Shown here piece after piece: positions 24,933-46,440 of a stretch of 64,000 nt of DNA (position 1 is the stretch's first letter; each line of letters begins with the position of its first letter). The stretch comes from Coriobacteriia bacterium (GTDB lineage: Bacteria; Actinomycetota; Coriobacteriia; WRKU01; JAENWW01): positions 84,851 through 148,850 of the forward strand of contig JAENWW010000002.1 in the NCBI GenBank assembly GCA_016649875.1, read 5' to 3'. The translations under genes were made by a program, and so were the position numbers. The notes under the pieces were generated by a model. It was not told where the DNA came from and searched no databases. It saw only the letters and a program-made list of their open reading frames with translations.

Positions 24933-24992
24933 AAAAGTGTGAATTGCGTGGCGTGTGTGCGGATTGTCGTCCGCACGTCATGAAAACTGCAT

Positions 24993-25068
24993 GGGGGTGT
25001 ATTCCAACGGCAGAGAAAGAGGACTTAAAATCCTTACAGTGTGGGTTCGAATCCCACCACCCCTACCA
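24993..25068 (+). tRNA. tRNA with anticodon UAA (formally Leu-UUA-decoding) but class I geometry: 76 nt, 5-nt variable loop, CCA encoded
   Basis: Manual fold gives acceptor GGGGGTG/CACCCCT (G1-U72), U8, and a D-arm with GG. Anticodon stem GAGGA/TCCTT with loop CTTAAAA (anticodon TAA at 25026-25028). Variable loop ACAGT. T-arm GTGGG-TTCGAAT-CCCAC. A73 then CCA. Confidence 0.6.
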
Positions 25069-25153
25069 CTGCAAAACCACGTCGCTTGATCTTTTCGAGA
25101 TTGAGCGGCTGTTTTTCGAATCGATACCGTGAATTGCGGATATAATCAAAATC

Positions 25154-26218
25154 ATGGATGAAGCAAAAAAAATACGCCTGACTCAAATGTCGAGCAAAGC
25201 CGGTTGAGCAGCGAAGTGGGGTCCGGCGGATCTCAAAGCGGTGCTGGATAAAATCGATCCCGGACAGAGCGACAATCTCATGCTCGGGTTCGAAACAAGC
25301 GACGATGCGGCTGTCTACAAGCTAACCGACGACATCGCCGGCTTGATGACGATTGACTTTTTCACGCCGATTGTCGATGACCCCTATGACTTCGGCCGCA
25401 TCACCGCGGCCAACGCGCTTTCGGACATATACGCCATGGGAGGCAAACCGCTCACCGCGTTGAACATGATTGCGTTTCCGTGTTCTTTGGGTCCCGACAT
25501 CGTCGGCGAAGTGGTGCGGGGCGGCGCCGAGAAAGTCGCGGAAGCCGGTGCAGTCGTCGTCGGCGGACACACGATAGACGATAAAGAACCGAAGTACGGT
25601 CTCTCGGTCTTCGGAGTCGTGAATCCTCTCAAGGTGCTTCGTAACAAGGGAGCGCGTGAGGCTGACGCAATCGTCGTCACCAAGGCGCTTGGCACCGGTC
25701 TATGGGGAACAGCCATTAAGCGCGGTGTGGCCGACGAGACAACCGCCCACGAGGCAATCGAATCCATGGCCAAACTCAATAAATACGCATGCGAGGCTCT
25801 CGAGGGAGTCGATGTCCATGCCCTTACCGACATCACCGGGTTCGGACTCGCCGGTCATCTGCACGAAATGGCGGAGGCGAGCGGTGTGGCCGCCCACATT
25901 GAGACGGAGTGCATACCTCTACTCGAGCAGGTCTATGAACTTTCAACCGGGAATGTGGTTCCGGGTCGCACGGCGGATATCATCGCTTGGACCCGAGAGT
26001 TTTTATCCTGGTCGGCCGAAAGTTATTCTCAGGAGGAGCGCCGCACGTGGATGCAAATTCTCTGTGATCCTCAAACAAGCGGCGGGCTTATGATTGCAAT
26101 GCCTCAAAACCAGGTTGAAACGTATTACGACAATCTCATCCGTATCGATTCGGATGCGATATGCGCAGTCGTCGGAACGTTCGAGCACGGAACTCCGGGC
26201 AAAATCACCATTAATTAG
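25154..26218 (+). CDS. selD: Selenide, water dikinase SelD, selenocysteine-containing (in-frame TGA)
   Basis: The 25241..26218 ORF has SelD motifs (DDAAVYKL, FFTPIVDDPYDFGRITAANALSDIYAMGGKP). Reading upstream in frame gives MDEAKKIRLTQMSSKAG-TGA-AAKWGPADLKAVL. This matches the E. coli N-terminus [30 protein letters not shown], with Sec at the catalytic Cys17 position. The TGA is at about 25205-25207 and the ATG at about 25154 (+/-1 nt counting uncertainty). A hairpin GGGGTCC-GGC-GGATCTC begins 11 nt after the TGA. Confidence 0.85.
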
Positions 26219-26285
26219 CTCGAAATATTTCTCAAATATCAATTATTATTATAATAACTATCAGCACTTTCAAAAAGGAGGCGGT

Positions 26286-26624
26286 ATGAAAAAATTCATG
26301 GTGCTTGCAACAGACGCAATCGGCAAGGGGAACGATGAGCTCGGCGCGATTCTCACACGTGTTTTTTTGACTTGTTTGGGGCAGGGGGAAGAGGTGCCCG
26401 AAGTTCTCGCTCTCATGAATGCAGGCGTTAAGTTGGCGTGTGAGGGCTCCGAAGTCCTCGATGAGCTCAGGGCCGTTGAAGCGCGAGGCGTGAAGATAAA
26501 AGCCTGTGGAACGTGTCTCGACTTTTTCGGAATCCGTGAGCAACTGATGGTCGGTGAGGCGGGAAAGATGCCCGATACCGTCGCAGCGCTCATGACGGCC
26601 GAGGACTCGATTGTAATCTCTTAA
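26286..26624 (+). CDS. Small DsrE/DsrF-like (YedF C-terminal-domain-like) protein, putative sulfur/selenium relay protein
   Basis: 112 aa, MKKFMVLATDAIGKGNDELG...KACGTCLDFFGI. Good RBS AAAGGAGG 6 nt upstream of ATG 26286. Located between selD and selA. The 176-aa track ORF is an artefactual 5' extension through an AT-rich promoter region. Confidence 0.5.
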   Translation: MKKFMVLATDAIGKGNDELGAILTRVFLTCLGQGEEVPEVLALMNAGVKLACEGSEVLDELRAVEARGVKIKACGTCLDFFGIREQLMVGEAGKMPDTVAALMTAEDSIVIS

Positions 26625-26698
26625 AAGAGCGCCTCGTTTCGGGTCCGTTTGTTGAAGCCGCAGGCGCGATTCAGGGATACATACGCTACAATGCAAGT

Positions 26699-28126
26699 AT
26701 GAAAACAAACATCACCACACAAGACCTTTTCAGATCATTGCCCAAGGTCGATGAAGTTCTCTCCGCGGAACAAGTCGCCGCGCTGCTACCGGCGGTTCCG
26801 CGCTCGGTGGTGCTTACTTCGGCACGTACTGCGATAGAAAATATGCGATCTGCCATCGCCACCGGGTCGCGAGCAGAACCGGTGTCACTTGCCGAAGTGG
26901 TGGCGGATACCATCTCAAGTGCACATATTCGTATGCAACCTTCGTTGCGAAGAGTCATCAATGCAACGGGTATAATCATTCACACGAATTTGGGACGGAG
27001 CATTTTGGCCGATTCGGCCGCCGAAGCGGTGCAAGAGGTAGCCTCGCATTATTCGACATTGGAATACAACTATGAAAGAGGCGTCCGCGGCTCACGCCAT
27101 GATCATGTAGAGTCTCTTCTTTGCGAGCTCACCGGAGCTGAGGCGGCTCTTGCGGTCAACAACAATGCGGCGGCGGTCATGATGTGTATCGCTTGTTTTT
27201 CACGTGGCCGGGAGGCAATCGTTTCTCGGGGGCAACTCGTCGAAATCGGCGGTTCGTTTCGTGTTCCCGACATCATGGCGGAGTCCGGTGCGCACATGGT
27301 GGAAGTGGGAGCGACGAACAAAACGCATCTTAAAGACTACGAAAATGCGACCAATGAGAAAACAGGTTTGTATCTCAAGGTCCATTCGTCCAATTACCGC
27401 GTGATCGGATTCACTTCGGAAGTCGAACTCGCCGAGCTTGTGGACCTCGGTGCGAAACATGACATTCCGGTTATGGAGGACCAAGGGTCCGGTGTTTTGC
27501 TCGATTTGAGAAAGTACGGTTTGCCCTATGAACCGACGGTTTCCGAATCGGTGAAAGCAGGGGCGAGCATCGTGACTTTTTCGGGAGATAAGCTTCTCGG
27601 GGGTCCCCAGGCAGGTATCATCGTCGGCAAATCTGAGGCGATTGCCCGGTTGAAAGCCCACCCTCTCGCCCGCGTGCTTCGTCTCGATAAGATGACCTTG
27701 GCCGCGCTGGAAGCCACGTTGATGATTTATCGCGATGAAGACAGGGCGGTTGAAGAAATTCCCACGCTTCACGCTTTGACGATGGATCTCGAAGAGTGCA
27801 AGACACGTGCGAACGGACTCGCCGAGTCTCTCCTCGAAGCTTTGAGAAAAGAAGGTCTACTCGGCACTGTGGATATTTCCGTCGATGTCGATATCGCTCG
27901 CGCCGGCGGAGGGTCGCTGCCTTTGGCCGACATTCCGACCGCTGTACTCTCGTTGAGATTCGAAGACGTTTCCGCCACTGAAGTCGAGCGTCTCTTGCGT
28001 ATCGATTCGCCGGTTCCCATCGTCGCGCGTATAAACGATGAGAGATTGCTCATCGATCCGCGTACGTTCGTGTCTGATGATGCATCTGTCGTCGTGGAGC
28101 AACTATGCAAAATACTGCGCCGCTGA
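26699..28126 (+). CDS. selA: L-seryl-tRNA(Sec) selenium transferase (selenocysteine synthase)
   Basis: 475 aa. SLPKVDEVL N-terminal motif. RVINATGIIIHTNLGRSILADSAAEAV (compare E. coli INATGTVLHTNLGRA). PLP-lysine region FSGDKLLGGPQAGII. Confidence 0.9.
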   Translation: MKTNITTQDLFRSLPKVDEVLSAEQVAALLPAVPRSVVLTSARTAIENMRSAIATGSRAEPVSLAEVVADTISSAHIRMQPSLRRVINATGIIIHTNLGRSILADSAAEAVQEVASHYSTLEYNYERGVRGSRHDHVESLLCELTGAEAALAVNNNAAAVMMCIACFSRGREAIVSRGQLVEIGGSFRVPDIMAESGAHMVEVGATNKTHLKDYENATNEKTGLYLKVHSSNYRVIGFTSEVELAELVDLGAKHDIPVMEDQGSGVLLDLRKYGLPYEPTVSESVKAGASIVTFSGDKLLGGPQAGIIVGKSEAIARLKAHPLARVLRLDKMTLAALEATLMIYRDEDRAVEEIPTLHALTMDLEECKTRANGLAESLLEALRKEGLLGTVDISVDVDIARAGGGSLPLADIPTAVLSLRFEDVSATEVERLLRIDSPVPIVARINDERLLIDPRTFVSDDASVVVEQLCKILRR

Positions 28127-30039
28127 TTCTGGGCACCGCCGGTCATATCGACCACGGAAAATCAACTTTGATAAAGGCTTTGACGGGCGTGGACCCCGAT
28201 CGCCTCGCCGAAGAAAAAGAGCGAGGCATCACCATCGAACTCGGTTTCGCCGAGTTGGTGACACCGAAAGGTGTGCACTTCGGCGTCGTCGATGTTCCCG
28301 GACATGAGAAGTTCGTGCGCCACATGGTTTCCGGTGCCGCCGGAATCGATGTCGCATTGCTGGTAATCGCTGCCGATGACGGAATCATGGTGCAAACGCG
28401 TGAGCATGCGGCCATTCTCAATTTGCTCGGTGTGGAACATGCGGTCGTCGCATTGACTAAAATCGATAGGGTCGAGGCGGACTGGGCCGATCTCGTCGAA
28501 ATGGATATAGAAACCCTTTTAGAGGGAACTCTTCTCGAAGGGTCGCCCGTCGTTCGCGTTTCATCGACGACCGGACGCGGCATCGAGGCGTTGCTAAGCG
28601 CACTCGACGACACTGCCGAAAAGATTGCTGAGCGGGGACGGACAAACAATACGTCCGTCGCTCGGCTTCCGATCGATCGCGTTTTCACCATCTCGGGGGC
28701 CGGGACGGTCGTGACGGGCACGTTATGGTCGGGGGCGATAGTGCTCGGCGATGAGCTGGAAGAGGTGTCCGCACACAAGAAAGTCCGCGTGCGCGGTATC
28801 CAAGTCCATAACGTCGATGTAGAACAAGCGTTGGCCGGAATGCGTGTCGCACTCAATCTATCGAATATCGATAAGTCCGAGGTATCTCGGGGCGACATGC
28901 TTGCCACGCGGGGTGCGCTTCGCGAAACGAATATCTTCAACGCAATCTTTACCTACATCGGCTCCGAGTCCTCGGAAAGCGACACCAAGCCGTTGAAGAG
29001 CGGGACTCGTGTTCACGTCCATCATGGAACCGTCGCAACTGTCGGCCAGATTTTTTTCTTCGACGAAAAGTCGATCCGGCCGAACCGGAGCGTCTTCGCT
29101 CAGATACGTTTGGAAAAACCGATAGCTCCCGTTTATCTCGACCATTTCATCATTCGAAGCTTTTCACCGGTTTTCACCATCGGAGGAGGCGTCGTCCTCG
29201 ATGCGTCTCCTGCAAAGCGTACGCGAATCTCTGCCGATGAGCACGACTTGCTCGAGGCGCTTGCGAGTCGAGATTACGAAAAGGCCGCATGCGAACTCCT
29301 CGTCGTCAAAAAGGAACCCCTGAGCAGTGCGATGATTGCCGGGCTGCTCGGATGCGAGCGGAGCCGCGTTGCAACTGCGCTCAATACTTCGAACGCAGCG
29401 CGCATCAAAGTCGCCAAAGAGACGCTGTTCGTCGATCCTCTCGTATACGACCATGTCGCCGCAGCGATAAAGACCGAGCTTCTCGCGCTCTACGACAGGT
29501 ATCCTTCTGAGCATGCTTTCTCCCTTCCGATGCTCAAAGACCGAGTCGATACGCGGATGACACCGGAGGTTTTTGCGGCATTCGCCGAAATCGCCGCCGA
29601 AGCGCCGGAAATCGAACTTGTCGCCGGTCGAATCAGCCATTCCGGGGCCGCGTCGAATATCCATGCGCTCGAAGATGAGATTGCACGACAGGCGCTCGCT
29701 CGTATCGGGCACCGGGGGTTGGAAGTCGAAACGACCGCTGAACTGGCGAGAGCGCTGGGGGCGGATTCAAAGTTCGTCGGTCGCATTCTCGGACGAATCG
29801 CCTCCGAAGGGGGACTCATCCGCCTCGCGGGGGATTTGCATTTTTTGCCCGGAGATGTCTCAAAAGCTGAAGAAATCGTGAAGAAGGCACTGCGAGATGC
29901 GACTGCCGAGGCACCCGTATCTGCCTCGGAATTGTGCGCTGCAATGGGTTTGAGCAGGAAGTATGCCATTCCGCTTCTCGAGTACTTCGATTCGCAGGGT
30001 GTTACGCGTCGAATCGGCAATGGGAGAATTCTCGTTTGA
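28105..30039 (+). CDS. selB: Selenocysteine-specific translation elongation factor SelB
   Basis: 644 aa. GTPase N-terminus ILGTAGHIDHGKSTLIKALTG, DVPGHEKF, NKID. Long C-terminal winged-helix extension as in SelB. Overlaps selA by 22 nt. Confidence 0.9.
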   Translation: MQNTAPLILGTAGHIDHGKSTLIKALTGVDPDRLAEEKERGITIELGFAELVTPKGVHFGVVDVPGHEKFVRHMVSGAAGIDVALLVIAADDGIMVQTREHAAILNLLGVEHAVVALTKIDRVEADWADLVEMDIETLLEGTLLEGSPVVRVSSTTGRGIEALLSALDDTAEKIAERGRTNNTSVARLPIDRVFTISGAGTVVTGTLWSGAIVLGDELEEVSAHKKVRVRGIQVHNVDVEQALAGMRVALNLSNIDKSEVSRGDMLATRGALRETNIFNAIFTYIGSESSESDTKPLKSGTRVHVHHGTVATVGQIFFFDEKSIRPNRSVFAQIRLEKPIAPVYLDHFIIRSFSPVFTIGGGVVLDASPAKRTRISADEHDLLEALASRDYEKAACELLVVKKEPLSSAMIAGLLGCERSRVATALNTSNAARIKVAKETLFVDPLVYDHVAAAIKTELLALYDRYPSEHAFSLPMLKDRVDTRMTPEVFAAFAEIAAEAPEIELVAGRISHSGAASNIHALEDEIARQALARIGHRGLEVETTAELARALGADSKFVGRILGRIASEGGLIRLAGDLHFLPGDVSKAEEIVKKALRDATAEAPVSASELCAAMGLSRKYAIPLLEYFDSQGVTRRIGNGRILV

Positions 30040-30082
30040 CAATGGGCGTGATTATTCCCACAATGGTAAAGCTTGTAAACTC

Positions 30083-30179
30083 GGAGCCGGATTCGTCCTG
30101 GTGGGCGACGCGGCCTTCAAAGCCGTCGTGAGGGGTGAAGAACTTCTCGGGTGTGTTCGATTCGCACACGGTTCCGCCA
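30083..30179 (+). tRNA. selC: tRNA-Sec (anticodon UCA)
   Basis: 97 nt, GGAGCCGGATTCGTCCTGGTGGGCGACGCGGCCTTCAAAGCCGT...TGTGTTCGATTCGCACACGGTTCCGCCA. 6-bp D-stem TCGTCC/GGGCGA with a 4-nt D-loop TGGT (the Sec hallmark). Anticodon loop CTTCAAA. Long variable arm. T-loop TTCGATT. G73 then CCA. Lies 44 nt after the selB stop. Confidence 0.8.
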
Positions 30180-30202: not shown

Positions 30203-30676
30203 GTGTCATTATTCGGAGCAAACGTGAAGCGTAGATATGTGGTCGTTCTTGTGTGTATCGTGTTGATGGGCACAGGCACTGCGGTGCTGAGCGGATGTTC
30301 CGCGAAAAAAAGCACTGCGAATGCGGCGGACGCTTCACAGGTGGCTGAGGTCGGAGCGACCGTCAACGGAGAGATGAAAGCAGGCTATCCGGAAAGCCTC
30401 CCCCTTTGGAGCGGTGCGACGGTCGTCAGTTCGAAGCATACCGACAAAGGGCAGTTCAATGTATATGAACTCAATATGACGACCACGGCGAGCTACAGCA
30501 AAGTCGTGTACGGCTACGGAAAAGGACTGCAAAACGCCGGTTGGGATGCCAGAAGTCTCGGAGGAGACGGAACATCGACGGCAATCTCGGCGACTAAAGG
30601 CTCCCTCGAAGCCGCCATTACCATCTCAAAAGATAAGAGCGGACTGACATCGATAGTGATATCGGTTCAGATGTAA
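30203..30676 (+). CDS. Putative lipoprotein of unknown function
   Basis: Signal peptide with lipobox AVLSGCSA. Low-complexity Thr/Ser-containing mature region. The start (ATG 30203 or GTG 30224) is uncertain. Confidence 0.5.
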   Translation: MSLFGANVKRRYVVVLVCIVLMGTGTAVLSGCSAKKSTANAADASQVAEVGATVNGEMKAGYPESLPLWSGATVVSSKHTDKGQFNVYELNMTTTASYSKVVYGYGKGLQNAGWDARSLGGDGTSTAISATKGSLEAAITISKDKSGLTSIVISVQM

Positions 30677-33378: not shown

Positions 33379-34266
33379 TTATTCTTTCGGAAAGTGTTTC
33401 ACAAGCTCTTCCACTGCTTGAGGAATCGTCAAAGGCACTGAAAAAGGTGTCTTTGTTCGCCGTGAAAGCTCGGTGAACATTTCCGCCAATATAGGGGGAT
33501 GGATATGGGATTCCCGCAGTATATCCACGTGTTCGAAAATCTCGTCGGGGGTACCTGCAAGTACGATTTCCCCGCCTGACGCGAGTACATAACAATAGTC
33601 GGCTATTTCTCCGATCGAGTCGATGTCATGAGTCGACATAACCATACTGACGCCTTGATTCTTGAGTTTGCACAAAACATCGACGACGGTTTTTCGCACA
33701 ACTGAGTCGAGACCTTCGAAAGGCTCGTCGAGTATCAGCAGCTCAGGTCCGATTGCGAGTGCCCCGGCCAGTGCCACCCGACGCTTTTCACCTCCGGACA
33801 AACTTTGGGGCGTTCGGTGCAACAGCGCTTCGACCCCCAATAATTTCGCAACGCGTTGCACGGCCGGATCGATCGTGTCTTGAGGTCGATGATATTGGCG
33901 AAGCGAAAAAGCGATGTCATCGTAGACGGTCGGCATAATGAGCTGTTGGTCGACATTTTGTAAAACGACACCGATTCGCTCACGAATTTCGGGCCACTGT
34001 CTCGTCGGATCGAGACCGAATACTCGAACCGTTCCTTCTTGCGGTCGCAAGAGCCCGAGAAGGTGTTCGAGTAAGGTCGACTTTCCGGCTCCGTTGGGTC
34101 CGAGCAACACCGTCCGTTCACCTTTGTGCGCGCAAAAGTCCAGGCCACACATTTCAACCGATGCTCCGTCTTCATAAAAATGTTTTATGCAACTGACGTA
34201 GGCGACGTCGTTTGGGTGCGGACCGCCTCGAAGTGCGTGCGCATGTTTTTGTGGGGAACTTTCCAT
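33379..34266 (-). CDS. cbiO: Energy-coupling factor (ECF) transporter ATPase, CbiO-type
   Basis: GPNGAGKSTLLEHL, LSGGEKRRVALAGALA, LILDEPFEGLD. Start ATG at 34266 (MESSPQ) with an AAGGAAG RBS. The track ORF extends to 34314. Confidence 0.8.
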   Translation of the reverse strand: MESSPQKHAHALRGGPHPNDVAYVSCIKHFYEDGASVEMCGLDFCAHKGERTVLLGPNGAGKSTLLEHLLGLLRPQEGTVRVFGLDPTRQWPEIRERIGVVLQNVDQQLIMPTVYDDIAFSLRQYHRPQDTIDPAVQRVAKLLGVEALLHRTPQSLSGGEKRRVALAGALAIGPELLILDEPFEGLDSVVRKTVVDVLCKLKNQGVSMVMSTHDIDSIGEIADYCYVLASGGEIVLAGTPDEIFEHVDILRESHIHPPILAEMFTELSRRTKTPFSVPLTIPQAVEELVKHFPKE

Positions 34267-34270
34267 GGAT

Positions 34271-34948
34271 TTATTCTTCCTTTCGATTACCGGACGCTGC
34301 GGTCGACCTCGCATCGGATGGTGGGGTTTCTCCCAGCACTATGTGACCGTCATATCCGCGCATGTACAAAATATCGTAGTCGGCTTCGGCGAGCGAGACC
34401 GAAAAGAGCATCAGATTTCCGAGAGCGGATGCCAAAGTCTGCAAAGCTTCGAGGGGGTGCCTCCAGCCGAGCACACCGCGCAGTCGGATTGCGCGCATGA
34501 GATTGCTGAGCTCATCGCCTAAGATGAAGAGAGTGCGATAGGTCAACAGCAATGCATCGTTCGCCAAACGGGGAAGAATGTGTCGCGTCATCGAGAAGAT
34601 GACCGGATAGGGTGTGGTCAGGGTGAGCAGAATGCAAGCACATGCCGCGGTCGTGCCTTTGAGCATGATTGAAATCGAAGCAGAAGATCCGAGCTCTGTG
34701 GTCAGTGCGAGCAAAACTGTGAAGATGAGCGGGTAGGCGGAAAGTGTCAATACGAGCTTGAGAGGGAGTTTTGCCGTCACGGCGATGAGTATGAGAGCGA
34801 GAAATATGCAGCCCAAAGCCACGGGGTTCCATAACAGTACAACCGCCGTGATCACACAGACGAGTCCTAGCGCTTTCAGCGGCGGGGCAAGTCTATGCAA
34901 AAAGCTGTCTTTTGAGGTCGCCCAGTAATCAATCGTTGTGATTTTCAT
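34271..34948 (-). CDS. cbiQ: ECF transporter transmembrane (T) component CbiQ
   Basis: 225-aa polytopic membrane protein starting MKITTIDYWATSKDSFLHRL (the CbiQ family start pattern). Strong RBS AAGAGGGAGG. Confidence 0.75.
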   Translation of the reverse strand: MKITTIDYWATSKDSFLHRLAPPLKALGLVCVITAVVLLWNPVALGCIFLALILIAVTAKLPLKLVLTLSAYPLIFTVLLALTTELGSSASISIMLKGTTAACACILLTLTTPYPVIFSMTRHILPRLANDALLLTYRTLFILGDELSNLMRAIRLRGVLGWRHPLEALQTLASALGNLMLFSVSLAEADYDILYMRGYDGHIVLGETPPSDARSTAASGNRKEE

Positions 34949-35618
34949 GTCGGCCTCCCTCTTTGGTCATGATTCCGGTGAGCAAGTTGGGTCGGACGGA
35001 CGCGATATAGCGCAGAATGAATCCGGTCAATGTCGCCTCGATGAGCCAGCCTATCGGACCGAGCACGTAAACTGTTCTGGCAAATACTTTCAACGAGACC
35101 ACTCCGCCCGCATGACTCGGGATACTCCCGGATATCGTCGAAACGACGCCGAGCATCAGAGTGGTTGAAATTGCGAGGGTGATCACGGTGACGATTCCGC
35201 CGATGAGCCCGATGTGTTTCGTGCCGAACAGTTTGACGAATGCACGAAAAAGAAGCGAACCGATGGTCATTTCCAGTGCGCCGAGCACGAGATTGATGCC
35301 GGCGACGGTTATGCCTCCATGCCCCACGAAAGCCAACACGATTTCGATGATGAGAGCGGCAATCGGAGACAGGAGCGGGCCGATGAGTGTGCCCGCCAAT
35401 ACGCTTAAGTTGACATGATAGGCCAGTGGGACGATTTCCAAGCTCATGGCGACGAGCATGAACGCCGATACCACGGCGAGCAGCGGAAGTTTTCTCAATA
35501 TGTCCGGTTTCGATGATGCGATTCTGTTCGCGATGAAAATCCACGCGAGCGCGATAATCCATCCCGTTACCCAGACCCAAACCGGCAGTATGCCGTCCGG
35601 CAAATGTATGTGTGACAT
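34929..35618 (-). CDS. cbiM: ECF transporter substrate-specific component CbiM (Co/Ni uptake)
   Basis: MSHIHLPDGILP N-terminus, a hallmark of CbiM/NikM (the N-terminal His is metal-coordinating). 7 predicted TMs. Overlaps cbiQ by 20 nt. Confidence 0.75.
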   Translation of the reverse strand: MSHIHLPDGILPVWVWVTGWIIALAWIFIANRIASSKPDILRKLPLLAVVSAFMLVAMSLEIVPLAYHVNLSVLAGTLIGPLLSPIAALIIEIVLAFVGHGGITVAGINLVLGALEMTIGSLLFRAFVKLFGTKHIGLIGGIVTVITLAISTTLMLGVVSTISGSIPSHAGGVVSLKVFARTVYVLGPIGWLIEATLTGFILRYIASVRPNLLTGIMTKEGGRHENHND

Positions 35619-35801
35619 TCATGCTCCGTAGCGAAGATAGGTACCGAGAATATAGTTCAGTATAAAGCTTTCGCGTAACAATCCGATAGTTTCGAACCTC
35701 TGTAAGTATAACAAGGCCAAACACGATCATTAGATTACACTTATACTATTGAATACTATTGAAATAACTTATCGTCGGTTTTCTCACTGAAAGTTTTTCT
35801 T

Positions 35802-36692
35802 ATGAATATACAACAGCTTAAAACATTCATAACCGTCGTCGATGCGGGATCGTTTTCCGCGGCCGCCCGCGTGCTCGGTGTTTCCCAACCGGCGGTGACG
35901 ATGCAAGTGCAAAATCTCGAATCGGATATCAACCAGTCACTTCTCGACAGACGTTATCGACGAATCGAGTTGACGGAAGCCGGGAGAGTCCTCGTTCCTT
36001 ACGCACGGGAAATGTTGTCGGAATCGCAAGCTGCGCGTGCAGAGATCAATGCGCTTTCCGGTGAGGTTTCGGGCCCTCTGCACATCGCTTTGAGCACAAC
36101 GCCCGGTGATTATATAATTCCGAACCTCCTCGGCGAGTTTTTGCGTGAGTATCCCGATGTCACCGTACGGCTGACGGTGACGAATACCAATGAAGTGGTC
36201 GAGCACATCGAGGATAGAGATGCCGATATCGGCATGGTCGGAGCACTGTCGAAAAGCAGCTCGGTGAAATTCAAACAGATGGGATCGGACGAGTTGATTC
36301 TCATCACCGGTCCGGATACGCCGTTGGCAAAGCAGGACGGCGAAGTGGGTCTCAAAGAGTTGTCTTCATACCCCTGGGTCGCTCGAAGTGCCGATTCGGG
36401 GACCCAGCAAGTGGTGAAAGCTCTGTTCGTCAAAAAATCAATCGACTACGGAGCATTGCATTTCCTCGTCGAACTCGGAACGGGCGAGGCGGTCGTCAAT
36501 GCTGTCGAAGGTGGACTCGGGATTGCCATCGTCAGCCGTTATGTAGCCGCAAACGCACTTGCATTGCGAACGATCGTCGAGATCGAGTGCGAGGAGCTCC
36601 CTTTGCCGCGACCCTTTTATTTAGTGACGCCGAAGAGAACACTCGCCCGTGCGGCAAGCGCGTTCGTAGACTTTTTGGCGACAAAGTTATAA
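35802..36692 (+). CDS. LysR family transcriptional regulator
   Basis: N-terminal HTH MNIQQLKTFITVVDAGSFSAAARVLGVSQPAVTMQVQNLE and a LysR substrate-binding domain. Divergent from cbiM. Confidence 0.85.
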   Translation: MNIQQLKTFITVVDAGSFSAAARVLGVSQPAVTMQVQNLESDINQSLLDRRYRRIELTEAGRVLVPYAREMLSESQAARAEINALSGEVSGPLHIALSTTPGDYIIPNLLGEFLREYPDVTVRLTVTNTNEVVEHIEDRDADIGMVGALSKSSSVKFKQMGSDELILITGPDTPLAKQDGEVGLKELSSYPWVARSADSGTQQVVKALFVKKSIDYGALHFLVELGTGEAVVNAVEGGLGIAIVSRYVAANALALRTIVEIECEELPLPRPFYLVTPKRTLARAASAFVDFLATKL

Positions 36693-38903: not shown

Positions 38904-41771
38904 GTGAAGCGCACGAAAGCGTTGGTTTCTGTTGCGTTGAGCGCGCTATGTTTCGGAACTCTGGCCGTGTTGACGCCGATGGCGTACGCCGCGCATGTGG
39001 AGCCTTTGCCTCTACTCGCGTGGCGTTTTTTCATCGCCGCGCTTGTCATCGGATTTTTGGCCTACCGGCGCAATAAGCATGCGTTCAAAGTGCCCAAGCG
39101 CGATTTGGCACGCTATTTCGCTCTTTCGCTATTTGGGTACGGAGCTTCCTCGCTCGCTTTTTTCATTGCGCTTAAGCACGCCGGTTCCGCGGTGGTATCG
39201 GCTCTTCTGTATGCTTATCCCGCTATCGTGGCGCTTGCCGCTGTGGTTTTCTTCAAAGAGAAGTTGAATCGCAACAAAATAATCGCCATTATCGCGGTCG
39301 CCGTGGGATGCTCACTTGTCGTCGGTCTTTTCGGAGGGAAAGCATCCGCCGAGCCGCTCGGCATCATTCTTGCTCTCATGGCGGCATTTTGCTATGCCGC
39401 GTTCAATCTCATGTCGCAAAGGTGGCTTCCCGGACGGTCGTCGATGACGATGATGTCGTTCACGTTCGGATTTTCCGCCGTACTTTTCGTGATACTGTCA
39501 TTGATCAGCGGTGGGCCGGCACTGCTCTTCAGTGCCATCGGTTGGTCGACTCGGGCGTGGGTACTCATGATACTCATCATCATTTTCCCCACGGTGGTAG
39601 CGATTTTGCTGTACTTGCGCGGCGTCAGACAACTCGGTGCTTCCGAGGCGGCTATCGTATCGACGCTCGAGCCTTTGTTCACCGTACTGTTCGCATGGCT
39701 TGCACTCGGACAAGTGCTCGGGTCCGTTCAGCTTTTAGGTGTGCTGCTGATCGTCGGAGGTATCGCCGCAAGCTCCATAGTCGGTAAAACGGCTGAACCG
39801 CCACCGACCGTTCCGTTGACGACCGATGAAATCCAACAAAATCAACAGCCTGAAAAACCGCCTTTGTCGAAGGGGGAAAGGCGTGGCAAAAAAATCTTCA
39901 TTGCAGTTTTAAGTGTCATCGCCGTCCTCATACTCATTCAAGTCATTGTGATATCCGGTGTTGTGTGGCTGCTCAATCAACCCGCCCCCGACATTTCTTC
40001 GCACAACATTTCGGAGCGGTCTTCTCAAGATTCCATCGTCTACGGCGCCGACGGTAGCGTGCTCGCTACGTGGAAGGGCGATGAAGATCGGGCTATCGTT
40101 GCGTATGCAGCGATACCCCAATGCGTGAAAAATTCGACGGTCGCCATTGAAGACAAACGATTTTACGAGCATGGAGGGGTCGACGTAATCTCAATCGCCA
40201 GGGCGTTGAAGAGAAACACCGAAGCCGGGGTCATCAAACAAGGGGGAAGTACCATCACCCAGCAGCTGATTAAGATGCTCTATACCGGAGATAAACGTAC
40301 GCTTTCACGCAAACTCCGAGAAGCCATCATGGCGACGCGTGTCGAGATGGTCTATGACAAAGATCGTGTTTTGGAGGGCTATCTCAACATGGCTTATTAC
40401 GGGCAAGGTGCGTACGGAATCCAAAGTGCGGCAACCAAATATTTCAGCAAGGATGTGCAGAGACTCAATATTCAAGAAGCCGCCATGCTCGCCGGCCTCG
40501 TGCGGTCGCCGAGTGCCTATAATGCTTTCAAAAATCCGGGGCCCGTCAAGAAACGACGAGATTTAGTGCTCAGGGCGATGAACGAGCAGGGGATGATCAC
40601 GGCGGCACAGTATGAGCTTGCGAAAAATTCTCCGCTCGGTCTTGTGCCTCCCAACTCAGTCTCGCAACAAGTGAAATATCCTTTCTTCGTTGATTACGTT
40701 CGGCGCGACCTCATAAGTAAGCTCGGTGAGGAGGCTGTCAATCACGGTGGACTCGCGGTGCGTACGACGTTCGATCCCGCTCTTCAAAATGCGGCGGAAG
40801 CGACAGCGAAGAAATTCAACAAAAATACCGACCCTGAAGTTTCCATCGTCACCGTCCGACAATCCGACGGAGCGGTATTGGCGATGGTCGGGGGACGCGA
40901 TTGGGGACAGAACCAATATAACTTGGCCACACAGGGCAGAAGGCAGCCGGGATCTGCATTCAAGCCGTTTACGCTTATCACGGCACTCGAAAACGGAGTG
41001 TCACTCAGCAAAACGTATTCCACGGCGTCCTATTCGACTCCTGTCAAAGATGGGGTGTGGAAGGTTTCGAACTTCTCAGAGAGCATGACTTCGAGTTCGA
41101 TGACACTTCGTCAGGCAACCGTGTGGTCGGTCAACACCGTATATGCGCGATTGATAATGCAGGTGGGGGCGAAAAAGGTCGCCGCTACGGCGAAAAAGAT
41201 GGGGTTTTCAAGCGAGATCAATCCCGACCCGGCAATTGCGCTCGGTGGCTTGAAATACGGGGTATCTCCTCTTGAGATGGCATCGGCATATGCGACAATC
41301 GCCGATAATGGGCAACGGACACCGACGACGGGAATCGTTTCCGTCGTCGACCGTGACGGAAAAACGCTCTATAAGCCATCCTTGAAAAAGACGCGCATAT
41401 ATTCTGAAAAGACGGGAGTGCAAGTCGCATCCGTTCTGCACGAGGTGGTGGCAGACGGTACGGGGCAGGCCTCACGTATTTCTGAAAGTTCCGCCGGTAA
41501 AACCGGTACGACGCAATCGTATCGCGATGCATGGTTCGTCGGTTGGGCGCACGGTGTTTCGACCGCCGTGTGGATGGGGCATCCCGAAGCCCAAGTGGAA
41601 ATGACTCATGTCAGGGGAAAAGCGGTCACGGGTGGAAGTTTCCCTGCGCAGATGTGGGCCCGATACATGCAAAGCGCCATCGAAATCCGTCCCCTTCAAG
41701 GTTGCCTTATGTCTGCGCACCAGCAAACGGTGACAGGCGGGCAAGGGGTCGATGTGGTGGCTGAGCCCTGA
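38904..41771 (+). CDS. Fusion ORF: N-terminal EamA/DMT-type 10-TM transporter domain (~300 aa) + class A penicillin-binding protein (TM anchor, GT51 transglycosylase, transpeptidase)
   Basis: Continuous 955-aa ORF with a GTG start at 38904 and a GAAAGGGAG RBS. Residues 1-300 are 10 hydrophobic helices with a tandem EamA pattern. Then comes a Pro/Gln linker and a TM KKIFIAVLSVIAVLILIQVIVISGVV. Then GT51 motifs EDKRFYEHGGVD and GGSTITQQL. Then the transpeptidase region (SAFKPF for SxxK, SxN, KTGT). Confidence 0.7.
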   Translation: MKRTKALVSVALSALCFGTLAVLTPMAYAAHVEPLPLLAWRFFIAALVIGFLAYRRNKHAFKVPKRDLARYFALSLFGYGASSLAFFIALKHAGSAVVSALLYAYPAIVALAAVVFFKEKLNRNKIIAIIAVAVGCSLVVGLFGGKASAEPLGIILALMAAFCYAAFNLMSQRWLPGRSSMTMMSFTFGFSAVLFVILSLISGGPALLFSAIGWSTRAWVLMILIIIFPTVVAILLYLRGVRQLGASEAAIVSTLEPLFTVLFAWLALGQVLGSVQLLGVLLIVGGIAASSIVGKTAEPPPTVPLTTDEIQQNQQPEKPPLSKGERRGKKIFIAVLSVIAVLILIQVIVISGVVWLLNQPAPDISSHNISERSSQDSIVYGADGSVLATWKGDEDRAIVAYAAIPQCVKNSTVAIEDKRFYEHGGVDVISIARALKRNTEAGVIKQGGSTITQQLIKMLYTGDKRTLSRKLREAIMATRVEMVYDKDRVLEGYLNMAYYGQGAYGIQSAATKYFSKDVQRLNIQEAAMLAGLVRSPSAYNAFKNPGPVKKRRDLVLRAMNEQGMITAAQYELAKNSPLGLVPPNSVSQQVKYPFFVDYVRRDLISKLGEEAVNHGGLAVRTTFDPALQNAAEATAKKFNKNTDPEVSIVTVRQSDGAVLAMVGGRDWGQNQYNLATQGRRQPGSAFKPFTLITALENGVSLSKTYSTASYSTPVKDGVWKVSNFSESMTSSSMTLRQATVWSVNTVYARLIMQVGAKKVAATAKKMGFSSEINPDPAIALGGLKYGVSPLEMASAYATIADNGQRTPTTGIVSVVDRDGKTLYKPSLKKTRIYSEKTGVQVASVLHEVVADGTGQASRISESSAGKTGTTQSYRDAWFVGWAHGVSTAVWMGHPEAQVEMTHVRGKAVTGGSFPAQMWARYMQSAIEIRPLQGCLMSAHQQTVTGGQGVDVVAEP

Positions 41772-42157: not shown

Positions 42158-42388
42158 GGGCTCAACTTTCTCATTAAAAGTATTTAGATTTTTCAATATA
42201 AAACATTTACGAACGAAATGAAAGGGCTTTGGGAAAATAGGGATATTCCTCATTTTTCAGTTCGAAAAAACAGCTCCGTATTATTGTGTTTAGCTGTGAC
42301 TTCATATAAAGTTTATACTATATGGAATTTATGAGGAGATGCGTTTTCGAATACTCTTCATTTGTGGTTTGAGAAGGAGAAGATACGT

Positions 42389-43327
42389 ATGGCTTGTCAC
42401 CCAATAGCTGCGTTTAAAAACCCAGTGACTCGGCCGCGCGCAATCATTTGGACGGGAACGATTCTTGCATCGTTGTGCATGCTCGTGTTCGTCATGTTTG
42501 CAGCGACCACATCGTATTGGTTCTGCGCCGGCATTTGTCACAGCGTACAAGATGACACTATCGGTTCCTACCAGCGGTCCGCGCACAGCAATGTGTCTTG
42601 TATCGCATGTCACCTTCCCGCTAATGCGAATCCGCTCGTTTACGCAATCCACAAGGTGGAGGCTCTCCCCGAATTGCCGATGGCCATATTCGGCAACTAC
42701 ACTCTTCCGCTCAACGCCGAGAGTGAAGTCTCGATGAGCAAAAAGCTGTTCCCCGACACGCAGTGTACCCAGTGCCATGATTTGAGCACTCGTGAAGTCA
42801 CGCCAAGTAGCGGAATCATCATCGATCACACGGCGCATGCCGATGAAGGCGTTCGTTGTACGATGTGCCACAACCGCGTAGCGCACAACGAATCCGGCGA
42901 TTGGTCTCCGACCGGCGTCAACCCGAAAACTAAAGAGCCGAGCGCAAAGCATGCCGACTTCTTGACGATGACGGCGTGCTATCGTTGCCACGGTCTCGAA
43001 AAAGGTTCGCCTGCGCCCGGAACATGTTTGACATGCCATCCAAAGACTTTCAATTTCAAGCCGAGTGATCACGCGACCGCAGACTTCATGAAAAACCACG
43101 GTAAACTCGCCAAGGCTGAAGTCGAGAAGGTCGCCGAAGCGACCAAGGAAACGGGAGTCCCCTCGCCGACCGCGGATGAAAAATTTGCTTCAGTCGAAAA
43201 ACTGGCTGCTCAAAAGAATGATAAGTCTTCCAAGGATGACGCGACGCTTGCTCCCGTCGGGACGATTGATCGCTGTTATAGCTGTCACGATAAGGCGACG
43301 TTCTGCGACAAGTGTCACGGCAAGTAG
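42389..43327 (+). CDS. Membrane-anchored multiheme c-type cytochrome (NapC/NirT/NrfH-like N-terminus; 7 CXXCH + 1 CX3CH)
   Basis: N-terminal TM AIIWTGTILASLCMLVFVMFAA. Heme-binding motifs CIACH, CTQCH, CTMCH, CYRCH, CLTCH, CYSCH, CDKCH, plus CAGICH. ATG at 42389 with a GAGAAGGAGAAG RBS. Confidence 0.8.
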   Translation: MACHPIAAFKNPVTRPRAIIWTGTILASLCMLVFVMFAATTSYWFCAGICHSVQDDTIGSYQRSAHSNVSCIACHLPANANPLVYAIHKVEALPELPMAIFGNYTLPLNAESEVSMSKKLFPDTQCTQCHDLSTREVTPSSGIIIDHTAHADEGVRCTMCHNRVAHNESGDWSPTGVNPKTKEPSAKHADFLTMTACYRCHGLEKGSPAPGTCLTCHPKTFNFKPSDHATADFMKNHGKLAKAEVEKVAEATKETGVPSPTADEKFASVEKLAAQKNDKSSKDDATLAPVGTIDRCYSCHDKATFCDKCHGK

Positions 43328-46069: not shown

Positions 46070-46194
46070 GTTTTGAATTACCGCTTAAGAGGGAAAACCG
46101 ACTCGTCGGGTGGTGTTCGGACGGTTTTTAAGGTATTCTTCGTAGTCGTACAAAGTTGTGCAAGTATTCGTTTCGTTTTGATGGAGGTATTCAT

Positions 46195-46440
46195 ATGCCA
46201 TTTACTGGTGGAATAGGCGCACCTGAACTTATTATCATTCTAGTGGTCGTCCTGGTTCTCTTCGGGCCGAAACAGCTTCCTAAGCTCGGTAAGATGTTTG
46301 GAAAAACTGTGAAAGAGGCTCGTAAGGGAATGGATTCTTTTAACGATGAAATGAAGACCGAAGAAACCGCTGAGGTCGAAGATACGCCCGCCGCGGCGAA
46401 GGAAGCCGATACTTCGGATTCTTCCAAGGAAGCCAAGTAG
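46195..46440 (+). CDS. tatA: Twin-arginine translocase subunit TatA/E
   Basis: [37 protein letters not shown] (TM plus amphipathic helix). GGAGG RBS. Confidence 0.8.

What the first reader, a model, noticed from the sequence alone, without database searches (positions are those of the whole stretch)
24993..30179. Compact, complete selenocysteine-decoding locus: selD(Sec) - dsrE/yedF-like - selA - selB - selC
All components needed for Sec insertion lie contiguously on one strand. These are SelD with its own UGA codon, a small DsrE/YedF-like putative Se/S relay gene, SelA, SelB (overlapping SelA by 22 nt), and a textbook tRNA-Sec 44 nt after selB. In many bacteria selC and selD are unlinked from selAB. 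This arrangement would make the whole Sec trait transferable as one about 5 kb module. It also predicts that the genome encodes further selenoproteins.
Basis: partly seen in the sequence, partly recalled or inferred. Interest (0 to 1): 0.55.

Follow-up and report, generated by a model that had tools for sequence, protein, structure and literature searches.

The report
Ordinary chromosomal selenocysteine operon, correctly read
This stretch holds a complete, intact set of genes for inserting selenocysteine into proteins in an uncultured gut-type actinobacterium (Coriobacteriia), but such clustered sets are already described, this one is already annotated in public databases, and it looks inherited in place, not mobile.

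Summary
On the + strand lie selD (25154-26218, in-frame UGA at 25205-25207), a 112-aa DsrE-fold "short YedF" (26286-26624), selA (26699-28126), selB (28105-30039, 22-nt overlap) and tRNA-Sec (30083-30179). All exceed the curated NCBIfam or Rfam cut-offs. The stated start, 24993, is not selD. It is an unrelated tRNA-Leu(UAA) followed by a terminator-like hairpin.

The locus sits in core chromosome (mfd-eno-ftsB-ppx upstream; tuf-secE-nusG-rplKAJ further downstream). No integrase or transposase domain was found, there is no att-like repeat, and GC, GC3 and codon usage are ordinary. The same order and neighbours recur in relatives. selD-yedF-selA-selB recurs in every short-YedF context sampled (six lineages), and next to mfd-eno-ftsB in one of them. 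This favours vertical inheritance over a mobile 5-kb module.

Co-localised Sec genes are published for Slackia (Coriobacteriia), Mycobacterium and Clostridioides. The YedF protein is 100% identical to an NCBI-named MAG protein.

Additions: a LysR regulator matching the selenium-metabolism family lies 5.6 kb downstream and is syntenic in relatives. The YedF lacks the TusA-like half. The neighbouring tRNA-Leu(UAA) is a rare short-variable-loop (type I) form.

Verdict: correct, ordinary, low interest.

The parts
24993..25068 (+). tRNA-Leu(UAA), 76 nt, short 5-nt variable loop. It lies inside the finding's range but is not part of the sel system.
   Evidence: ARAGORN; Rfam RF00005 58 bits. The 76-nt form is conserved with compensatory changes in L024.
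25081..25109 (+). Terminator-like hairpin plus T-run after tRNA-Leu. Likely the left transcriptional boundary of the sel locus.
   Evidence: Consensus scan. This is a pattern match only.
25154..26218 (+). selD, selenophosphate synthetase (354 aa), a selenoprotein with Sec at residue 18.
   Evidence: Translation; TIGR00476 369 bits against 125; AIRS and AIRS_C domains.
25205..25207 (+). In-frame UGA (Sec codon) of selD, in the motif G-U-AAKWGP.
   Evidence: The same in-frame TGA is present in seven related loci, L007, L010, L014, L015, L018, L019 and L020.
25206..25246 (+). SECIS-like hairpin directly after the UGA. Upper stem 25217-25224 / 25228-25235, apical loop GGC.
   Evidence: MFE -25.8 kcal/mol, z = -2.0. 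Consensus structure over 6 lineages, 13 pairs, 2 with both-sided changes. Confounded by coding constraint.
26286..26624 (+). Short YedF: a 112-aa DsrE-fold protein with an invariant CGTCLD motif and no TusA/SirA-like domain.
26699..28126 (+). selA, L-seryl-tRNA(Sec) selenium transferase (475 aa).
   Evidence: TIGR00474 588.5 bits against 267.9; PF03841 and PF12390; motif FSGDKLLGGPQ present in the translation.
28105..30039 (+). selB, Sec-specific elongation factor (644 aa). Its start overlaps selA by 22 nt, with GGAG 5 nt upstream of the ATG.
   Evidence: TIGR00475 363.6 bits against 242.25; GTP_EFTU, D2, SelB beta-barrel and SelB winged helix 3; sequence.
30083..30179 (+). selC, tRNA-Sec(UCA), 97 nt with encoded CCA. 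8/5 acceptor/T design with a G.A as the 8th pair, 6-bp D stem, long variable arm, G73.
   Evidence: ARAGORN; RF01852 68 bits against 47; 97% mean column identity across 5 lineages.
35802..36692 (+). LysR-family regulator matching the 'selenium metabolism-associated' family. Candidate regulator, outside the finding's range.
   Evidence: NF040786 252.7 bits against a cut-off of 250. Syntenic downstream of the sel locus in L021, L022, L025 and L026.

Best explanation
This is the resident, vertically inherited selenocysteine-decoding operon of an uncultured Coriobacteriia bacterium. It works by the canonical bacterial pathway.

- SelD makes selenophosphate from selenide and ATP. SelD is itself a selenoprotein, so the system feeds back on its own synthesis.
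- SerRS charges tRNA-Sec (selC) with serine.
- SelA converts Ser-tRNA(Sec) to Sec-tRNA(Sec) using selenophosphate.
- SelB-GTP carries Sec-tRNA(Sec) to UGA codons that are followed by a SECIS hairpin, such as the one just after the selD UGA.

The small DsrE-fold YedF between selD and selA is most likely a Cys-based (CGTC) selenium/sulfur relay or redox helper that hands reduced selenium to SelD or buffers it. A LysR regulator of the selenium-metabolism type 5.6 kb downstream is the likely regulator.

Shown: gene identities, intactness, order, conservation and context. Inferred from the established pathway: the enzymology. Hypothesis: the YedF and LysR roles.
For: - Family models are all above curated cut-offs.
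- The UGA sits at the catalytic Sec/Cys position and is conserved in seven related loci, with a conserved downstream hairpin.
- All ORFs are intact. selA and selB are translationally coupled.
- selD-yedF-selA-selB order is found in every short-YedF context sampled: window, L010-13/L025-26, L014, L015, L017/18 and L024.
- tRNA-Sec directly follows selB in the window and in L021, L022 and L025. It lies 4.4 kb downstream in L024.
- Context is core chromosome. In L024, whose YedF is about 60% identical, the locus lies beside mfd-PPIase-mazG-eno-ftsB-tRNA-Leu. In L014 it lies a few kb after ppx-tRNA-Leu.
- GC, GC3 and codon usage are ordinary.
- No att-like repeat.
- YedF has a DsrE fold and an invariant CGTCLD motif.
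- Literature links YedF and LysR_Se with SelD and with sel genes (PMC5322559; PMC9312934).
Against: - Nothing contradicts the identity of the locus.
- No experimental evidence of expression or Sec insertion exists for this organism.
- No selenoprotein other than SelD is visible in the 64 kb.
- The hairpin's stability (z = -2.0) and its conservation are partly explained by the conserved WGPADL coding sequence.
- The YedF function is untested anywhere, and the protein lacks the TusA-like half that the literature uses to define YedF.
- The LysR score clears its cut-off by only 2.7 bits.
- In the L010/L025 lineage the flank upstream of selD differs and a SpoIIE gene splits selD from yedF, so the region does rearrange.
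Confidence: 0.93

Rival explanations
1. The 5-kb block is a recently acquired, self-contained mobile Sec module. This is the first reader's suggestion: horizontal transfer of the whole trait, perhaps using the flanking tRNA genes as integration sites.
For: All components are contiguous, and the block is bracketed by tRNA-Leu and tRNA-Sec. Published work proposes whole-trait transfer where sel genes co-localise (PMC5322559; PMC1273633; PMC13449736). The upstream flank differs in the L010/L025 lineage.
Against: - No integrase, transposase or recombinase domain among the roughly 58 predicted proteins scanned.
- No second copy of the tRNA-Leu 3' end in the window and no repeat bracketing the locus.
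- GC 0.54-0.565, GC3 0.58-0.65 and codon-usage distance 0.10-0.21 all fall within the window's spread.
- The locus sits at the same chromosomal place, next to mfd-eno-ftsB-tRNA-Leu or ppx-tRNA-Leu, in lineages whose YedF is only 54-60% identical.
- The downstream genes are also syntenic.
Confidence: 0.05
2. The locus is decaying. The TGA in selD is a genuine stop that truncates the enzyme, and the system is non-functional.
For: Automatic gene callers truncate selD to 312-314 aa starting after the TGA. No other selenoprotein gene is in the window.
Against: The TGA sits exactly at the catalytic Sec/Cys position, with identical flanking residues, in seven related loci. A conserved hairpin follows it. 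selA, selB, yedF and selC are full length and conserved. tRNA-Sec is 97% identical across lineages whose SelB is 48% identical, which indicates purifying selection.
Confidence: 0.02
3. The small DsrE-like gene is a generic sulfur-relay protein that merely happens to lie in the operon and has no role in selenium metabolism.
For: The fold is that of DsrEFH/TusBCD/YchN sulfur-relay proteins. It lacks the TusA-like domain that Lin et al. treat as part of the YedF signature. Some YedF-bearing organisms lack SelD.
Against: It lies between selD and selA in all six short-form lineages sampled. The two-domain form in Zhaonella also directly follows selD. It passes the TIGR03527 equivalog cut-off. CGTCLD is invariant across the short and long forms.
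Confidence: 0.15

Closest known systems
Co-localised Sec/Se-utilisation gene regions of Slackia heliotrinireducens (Coriobacteriia), Coprococcus comes and others (Lin et al. 2015, PMC5322559)
   Same: All Sec-decoding genes plus accessory Se genes (YedF, LysR_Se) lie in one small region. Slackia is in the same class, Coriobacteriia. The whole-trait transfer idea is already voiced there.
   Different: In Slackia the region is larger and includes YedE, Sec lyase, DUF3343 and a two-domain YedF, with LysR next to selA. Here there are only five tightly packed genes, a DsrE-only YedF, and LysR 5.6 kb away.
Mycobacterial sel locus, selD-selC-selA-selB (PMC13449736)
   Same: Same phylum (Actinomycetota). 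All four sel genes are contiguous, in contrast to E. coli.
   Different: In mycobacteria selC lies between selD and selA. Here it follows selB, and a yedF gene occupies the selD-selA gap. The mycobacterial authors infer gain and loss; here synteny favours vertical descent.
Clostridioides difficile selDAB operon (bioRxiv 10.1101/2021.01.06.425661)
   Same: selD, selA and selB form one operon.
   Different: No yedF or selC linkage is stated in the passages read.
YedF / TIGR03527, 'sulfurtransferase-like selenium metabolism protein' (FdhU of Campylobacter)
   Same: DsrE-like domain with the CGxC motif, linkage to selD, and a score above the NCBIfam cut-off.
   Different: It lacks the N-terminal SirA/TusA-like CPxP domain, matching profile positions 85-193 only. 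No TusA-like ORF exists in the window.
Type I tRNA-Leu(CAA) of Streptomyces coelicolor (PMC6614811). Relevant to the side observation only.
   Same: An actinobacterial tRNA-Leu with a short variable loop, shown there to be leucylated by the single LeuRS.
   Different: Here the anticodon is UAA, the isoacceptor that is type II in Streptomyces, and the organism is a Coriobacteriia. Charging has not been tested.

Membership tests
Bacterial Sec-decoding system (selA, selB, selC, selD) | SelD: selenophosphate synthetase with Sec/Cys and Lys in the N-terminal G-(U/C)-x-x-K motif | tested here: met
   TIGR00476 369 bits against 125. Motif AG-U-AAK at residues 16-21.
Bacterial Sec-decoding system (selA, selB, selC, selD) | SelA: PLP-dependent Ser-tRNA(Sec) selenium transferase | tested here: met
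   TIGR00474 588.5 bits against 267.9; PF03841 and PF12390. SGDKLLGGPQ is present. That the K in this motif is the PLP lysine is from my own knowledge of E. coli SelA.
Bacterial Sec-decoding system (selA, selB, selC, selD) | SelB: EF-Tu-like GTPase with a C-terminal winged-helix SECIS-binding extension | tested here: met
   TIGR00475 363.6 bits against 242.25; PF00009, PF03144, PF25461 and PF09107 at residues 603-643.
Bacterial Sec-decoding system (selA, selB, selC, selD) | tRNA-Sec: UCA anticodon, 8+5 acceptor/T helix, 6-bp D stem, long variable arm, G73 | tested here: met
   RF01852 68 bits against 47. ARAGORN drawing. The 8th acceptor pair is a G.A mismatch with the same bases in relatives.
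Bacterial Sec-decoding system (selA, selB, selC, selD) | A SECIS hairpin immediately 3' of a UGA in a selenoprotein gene | tested here: inconclusive
   There is a hairpin with a G-containing apical loop starting 17 nt after the UGA, z = -2.0, kept in 6 lineages with 2 both-sided changes. The same bases encode conserved WGPADL, so structure and coding cannot be separated.
Bacterial Sec-decoding system (selA, selB, selC, selD) | Actual co-translational Sec insertion | not testable with these tools
   Needs 75Se labelling or mass spectrometry.
YedF (TIGR03527; Lin et al. 2015 definition) | C-terminal DsrE-like domain with a CGxC motif | tested here: met
YedF (TIGR03527; Lin et al. 2015 definition) | N-terminal SirA/TusA-like domain with a CPxP motif | tested here: not met
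   The protein aligns only to profile positions 85-193 of 194. No PF01206 hit. No credible CPxP ORF in the window. It is therefore a DsrE-only short form. Many 111-112-aa homologues exist and are labelled YedF by JGI or NCBI.
YedF (TIGR03527; Lin et al. 2015 definition) | Genomic association with selD | tested here: met
   It lies directly downstream of selD in the window and in L014, L015, L018, L024 and L020. In L010-13 and L025-26 one inserted gene separates them.
LysR_Se (NF040786, selenium metabolism-associated LysR) | Score above the curated cut-off, and proximity to sel genes | tested here: met
   252.7 bits against 250, which is marginal. It lies 5.6 kb from selC here and 3.2 kb in L022 and L025. 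Synteny is kept in four related loci. Regulatory targets are untested.
Integrative genomic island / mobile element | Integrase or transposase, flanking direct repeats (att), and atypical composition | tested here: not met
   No such domains. No tRNA 3'-end duplicate or bracketing repeat. Composition and codon usage are typical.

The most novel reading that the evidence does not exclude
The DsrE-only short YedF could be a dedicated fifth protein component of the actinobacterial Sec pathway. It would be a Cys-based (CGTC) perselenide carrier that delivers reduced selenium to SelD, or shields it between SelD and SelA. That would explain why it is fixed between selD and selA in every short-form lineage sampled, even though it has lost the TusA-like half used to define YedF.
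Probability: 0.3. Interest if true: 0.45.

Novelty: already known. Interest (0 to 1): 0.15.

Why it matters
It matters little beyond correct annotation. It shows that this uncultured Coriobacteriia lineage decodes UGA as selenocysteine, so its selD, and probably other genes elsewhere in the genome, will be truncated by standard gene callers. The public gene calls for selD in the same species and its relatives are indeed cut at the UGA.

The conserved selD-yedF-selA-selB order gives a clean comparative argument that the DsrE-like half of YedF, and not the TusA-like half, is the part tied to selenocysteine synthesis. This is a modest, testable lead on a protein whose function is unknown.

Tried and rejected
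1. Exact-sequence look-ups of the window's SelA and LysR found nothing on record. The source was reached through the YedF protein instead.
2. A scan of about 54 genes for further TGA-interrupted genes flagged only same-frame neighbouring genes (22215-23081/23085-23546 and 36758-37741/37778-38860). Each has its own start and its own domains, so these were rejected as selenoproteins.
3. A search for a separate TusA/SirA-like partner (CPxP motif) found only out-of-frame noise.
4. Searches for att-like repeats or a duplicated tRNA 3' end found none.
5. The longest ORF at 34945-35730 (-) translates to Arg-rich nonsense. The real gene is cbiM at 34929-35618. I first thought LysR might regulate the divergent cbiMQO genes, but that module is absent in L022 and L025 while LysR stays, so the pairing was dropped.
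6. A PDB sequence search with the YedF profile gave only a weak hit to an uncharacterised protein, 2fb6. The fold search was needed.
7. I briefly considered the 76-nt tRNA-Leu(UAA) unprecedented, on the strength of a review statement. A published actinobacterial type I tRNA-Leu(CAA) precedent lowers that claim.
8. The genome-contig scan with SelA returned few loci, because exact peptide words limit its reach. It cannot be used as a phylogenetic ranking.
Full report
**1. The observation**

The window carries, on the + strand:
- selD at 25154-26218
- a 112-aa gene at 26286-26624
- selA at 26699-28126
- selB at 28105-30039
- a 97-nt tRNA-Sec(UCA) at 30083-30179

ARAGORN calls the tRNA. Rfam's tRNA-Sec model scores it at 68 bits against a gathering score of 47. 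The four proteins exceed the curated NCBIfam equivalog cut-offs:
- SelD 369 bits against 125
- SelA 588.5 bits against 267.9
- SelB 363.6 bits against 242.25
- YedF 117.3 bits against 110

Pfam agrees. It finds AIRS and AIRS_C in SelD, SelA plus the Se-cys_synth_N domain in SelA, GTP_EFTU, domain 2, the SelB beta-barrel and the SelB winged helix in SelB, and DsrE in the small protein.

Translating selD from the ATG at 25154 gives MDEAKKIRLTQMSSKAG*AAKWGP. The TGA falls at codon 18, 25205-25207. The selA/selB overlap is 22 nt, with GGAG 5 nt before the selB ATG.

Three details need correcting:
- The stated start, 24993, is the first base of an unrelated tRNA-Leu(UAA) at 24993-25068. A terminator-like hairpin follows it at 25081-25109.
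- The selB-selC spacer is 43 nt, not 44.
- The 8th acceptor pair of the tRNA-Sec is a G.A mismatch. The bases at those positions are the same in all five related tRNA-Sec genes.

**2. Is the UGA a Sec codon?**

The same in-frame TGA, embedded in G-U-AAK(W/V)GP, is present in seven related loci, from a 99%-identical contig of the same species to a Zhaonella genome. Public gene callers start these selD genes after the TGA and so truncate them to 312-314 aa.

A hairpin begins right after the UGA. Its upper stem is GGGGUCC/GGAUCUC with apical loop GGC, and the loop starts 17 nt after the UGA. The MFE is -25.8 kcal/mol with z = -2.0. RNAalifold over six lineages keeps 13 pairs, two of them with changes on both sides. 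This fits a bacterial SECIS. However, the same bases encode the conserved WGPADL peptide, so I rate the structural evidence as inconclusive on its own.

**3. The small gene**

It aligns only with positions 85-193 of the 194-position YedF model. That is the DsrE-like half. It lacks the SirA/TusA-like CPxP domain. No TusA-like ORF is present in the window.

A database search found 113 relatives. Many are 111-112 aa, and some of these are already labelled "selenium metabolism protein YedF". Others are 192-194-aa two-domain forms. The top hit is 100% identical and is named by NCBI [quoted passage not shown]. This locus is therefore already in GenBank and annotated.

Lin et al. 2015 define YedF by the co-occurrence of both domains and propose a redox role through CGXC (PMC5322559). 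By that definition this protein fails one defining feature. I call it a DsrE-only short YedF.

**4. Context and inheritance**

The whole 64 kb is core chromosome. In order it carries:
- typA, mfd, a PPIase, mazG, eno, ftsB/DivIC, DUF501, ppx and tRNA-Leu
- the sel locus
- a small unknown protein with a signal-peptide-like N terminus, fetAB-like ABC genes, polyprenyl synthase, cbiMQO, LysR, cell-wall hydrolases and a PBP
- greA, lysS, clpC, radA, ispDF, cysS, sigH, a tRNA cluster, tuf, secE, nusG and rplKAJ

No integrase or transposase domain was found. The 3' end of tRNA-Leu has no second copy in the window, and no repeat brackets the locus. GC (0.54-0.565), GC3 (0.58-0.65) and codon-usage distance (0.10-0.21) of the sel genes lie inside the window's spread.

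Relatives show the following:
- **L007** (99.2% identical) and **L021** (SelA 91% identical) have the same order.
- **L001/L010-13/L022/L025-26** (Coriobacteriales MAG lineage, SelA 69% identical) have selD, then a minus-strand MASE3/SpoIIE gene, then yedF-selA-selB-selC. The same downstream genes follow, through LysR, the hydrolases and the PBP, to tRNA-Pro. This lineage has no cbiMQO and a different flank upstream of selD.
- **L024** (YedF 60% identical) has mfd-PPIase-mazG-eno-unknown-ftsB-tRNA-Leu-selD-yedF-selA-selB, with selC 4.4 kb further on.
- **L014** has ppx-tRNA-Leu, a few genes, then selD-yedF-selA...selB.
- **L015, L017 and L018** have selD-yedF-selA-selB with no selC within the fetched flanks.

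The four-gene core and its chromosomal neighbourhood are therefore old within this group. selC adjacency is a feature of the window's own clade. This pattern fits vertical inheritance with local rearrangement. It does not fit a recently acquired 5-kb cassette.

**5. What is already published**

- Romero et al. 2005 noted that selD is rarely contiguous to the selAB operon. They argued for horizontal transfer of the whole trait in Photobacterium profundum (PMC1273633).
- Lin et al. 2015 reported that in Slackia heliotrinireducens (Coriobacteriia), Coprococcus comes and a Lachnospiraceae strain, all Sec-decoding genes and some Se-related genes co-localise in one or two small regions. They suggested recent transfer of the whole trait. 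[quoted passage not shown]
- In mycobacteria selC lies between selD and selA, and the authors contrast this with E. coli (PMC13449736).
- C. difficile has a selDAB operon.

Both the arrangement and the idea attached to it are therefore known.

**6. An addition to the locus**

The LysR gene at 35802-36692 matches NCBIfam NF040786, [quoted passage not shown], at 252.7 bits against a cut-off of 250. It is syntenic with the sel locus in L021, L022, L025 and L026.

In the window a cbiMQO module separates it from polyprenyl synthase. In L022 and L025 that module is absent and LysR follows polyprenyl synthase directly. LysR is thus linked to the neighbourhood and not to the transporter. It is a plausible regulator of the sel genes, but this is untested and the score is marginal.

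**7. Mechanism**

The canonical pathway applies, from established knowledge:
- SelD makes selenophosphate.
- SerRS charges tRNA-Sec with serine.
- SelA converts the serine to Sec on the tRNA.
- SelB-GTP delivers Sec-tRNA(Sec) to UGA codons followed by a SECIS.

Because SelD itself needs Sec, the system is auto-dependent.

Transcription is probably organised as follows. tRNA-Leu is a separate unit that ends at its terminator-like hairpin. selD through selB are tightly spaced (gaps of 67 and 74 nt, then a 22-nt overlap). Promoter-like matches occur in the AT-rich selD-yedF spacer (26220-26249) and just before selC (30036-30064). These are consensus matches only.

The short YedF most likely relays or buffers reduced selenium through its CGTC cysteines. 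This is an inference from its fold, its motif and its fixed position.

**8. Side observation inside the finding's range**

The tRNA-Leu(UAA) at 24993-25068 is 76 nt. It has a 5-nt variable loop, a 3-bp D stem, A14, A15, G18, G19, U48, A73 and an encoded CCA. The syntenic gene in L014 is a normal 88-nt type II tRNA. L024 has the 76-nt form again, with paired changes in the acceptor, D and anticodon stems. The short form is therefore a conserved functional gene and not an assembly error.

UUA codons are in use: 76 of 1713 Leu codons. They align with Leu in relatives in 20 of 25 cases, so there is no sign of codon reassignment.

A 2023 review states that tRNA-Leu carries a long variable arm everywhere except animal mitochondria (PMC9976931). 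A type I tRNA-Leu(CAA) is nevertheless documented and shown to be charged in Streptomyces coelicolor (PMC6614811). This tRNA is a further, different-isoacceptor example in another actinobacterial class. Whether a type II tRNA-Leu(UAA) also exists elsewhere in the genome cannot be told from this window.

**9. Verdict**

The locus is real, complete and intact. It is also ordinary. It is a resident chromosomal sel operon of a kind already described, including in the same bacterial class, and it is already annotated in GenBank. Nothing in its context suggests mobility.

- Novelty: already known.
- Interest: 0.15.
- Most novel reading still open: the DsrE-only YedF is a dedicated selenium-relay component of the actinobacterial Sec pathway (probability about 0.3).

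Noticed in passing
window 24993-25068 (+); also L024 8711-8786 and L014 734-821: The tRNA-Leu(UAA) is a 76-nt type I-shaped tRNA with a 5-nt variable loop. It keeps the 3-bp D stem, A14/A15, G18G19, U48 and A73. The syntenic gene in L014 is a normal 88-nt type II tRNA. L024 has the short form with compensatory stem changes. UUA codons still align with Leu in relatives. A precedent exists for tRNA-Leu(CAA) in Streptomyces coelicolor (PMC6614811), but I found none for UAA or for Coriobacteriia.
   Followed up: partly
window 35802-36692 (+): A LysR regulator passes the NCBIfam 'selenium metabolism-associated LysR' cut-off by 2.7 bits. It stays syntenic with the sel locus in four related loci.
   Followed up: partly
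window 33379-35618 (-): A cbiM-cbiQ-cbiO type ECF metal transporter module lies between polyprenyl synthase and LysR in the window and in L021. It is absent at that place in L022, L025 and L026, so it is an insertion or deletion between lineages. The longest ORF there, 34945-35730, is spurious.
   Followed up: yes
window 38904-41771 (+): A 955-aa ORF combines an N-terminal EamA transporter domain with the transglycosylase and transpeptidase domains of a class A PBP. tblastn aligns it over 964-966 positions in L021 and L022, and a 1006-aa gene call in L026 carries the same domains. This is an unusual fusion if it is real.
   Followed up: no
L010 3779-5854 (-); the same gene in L011-L013, L025 and L026: In the sister lineage a MASE3/SpoIIE (PP2C-type phosphatase) gene sits on the opposite strand between selD and yedF. 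This is exactly where the window has a 67-nt AT-rich spacer containing the 12-bp palindrome TTATTATAATAA.
   Followed up: no
window 25141-25154 (+): A perfect TATAAT lies 7 nt before the selD ATG, with no Shine-Dalgarno sequence. This suggests a leaderless selD mRNA. A 10-nt motif, GTGAATTGCG, occurs both there (25129-25138) and upstream of tRNA-Leu (24939-24948).
   Followed up: no
window 30224-30676 (+): A 150-aa protein with no family match has a signal-peptide-like N terminus (MKRRYVVVLVC). It directly follows selC and precedes fetAB-like ABC genes. It is conserved at that position in L021 and L022 (81% and 49% identity).
   Followed up: no
window 42362-43327 (+) and 46156-46440 (+): A NapC/NirT-type multihaem cytochrome c and a TatA gene hint at anaerobic respiratory reductases. 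These are the usual setting for Sec-containing formate dehydrogenases in Coriobacteriia. No such enzyme is in the window.
   Followed up: no
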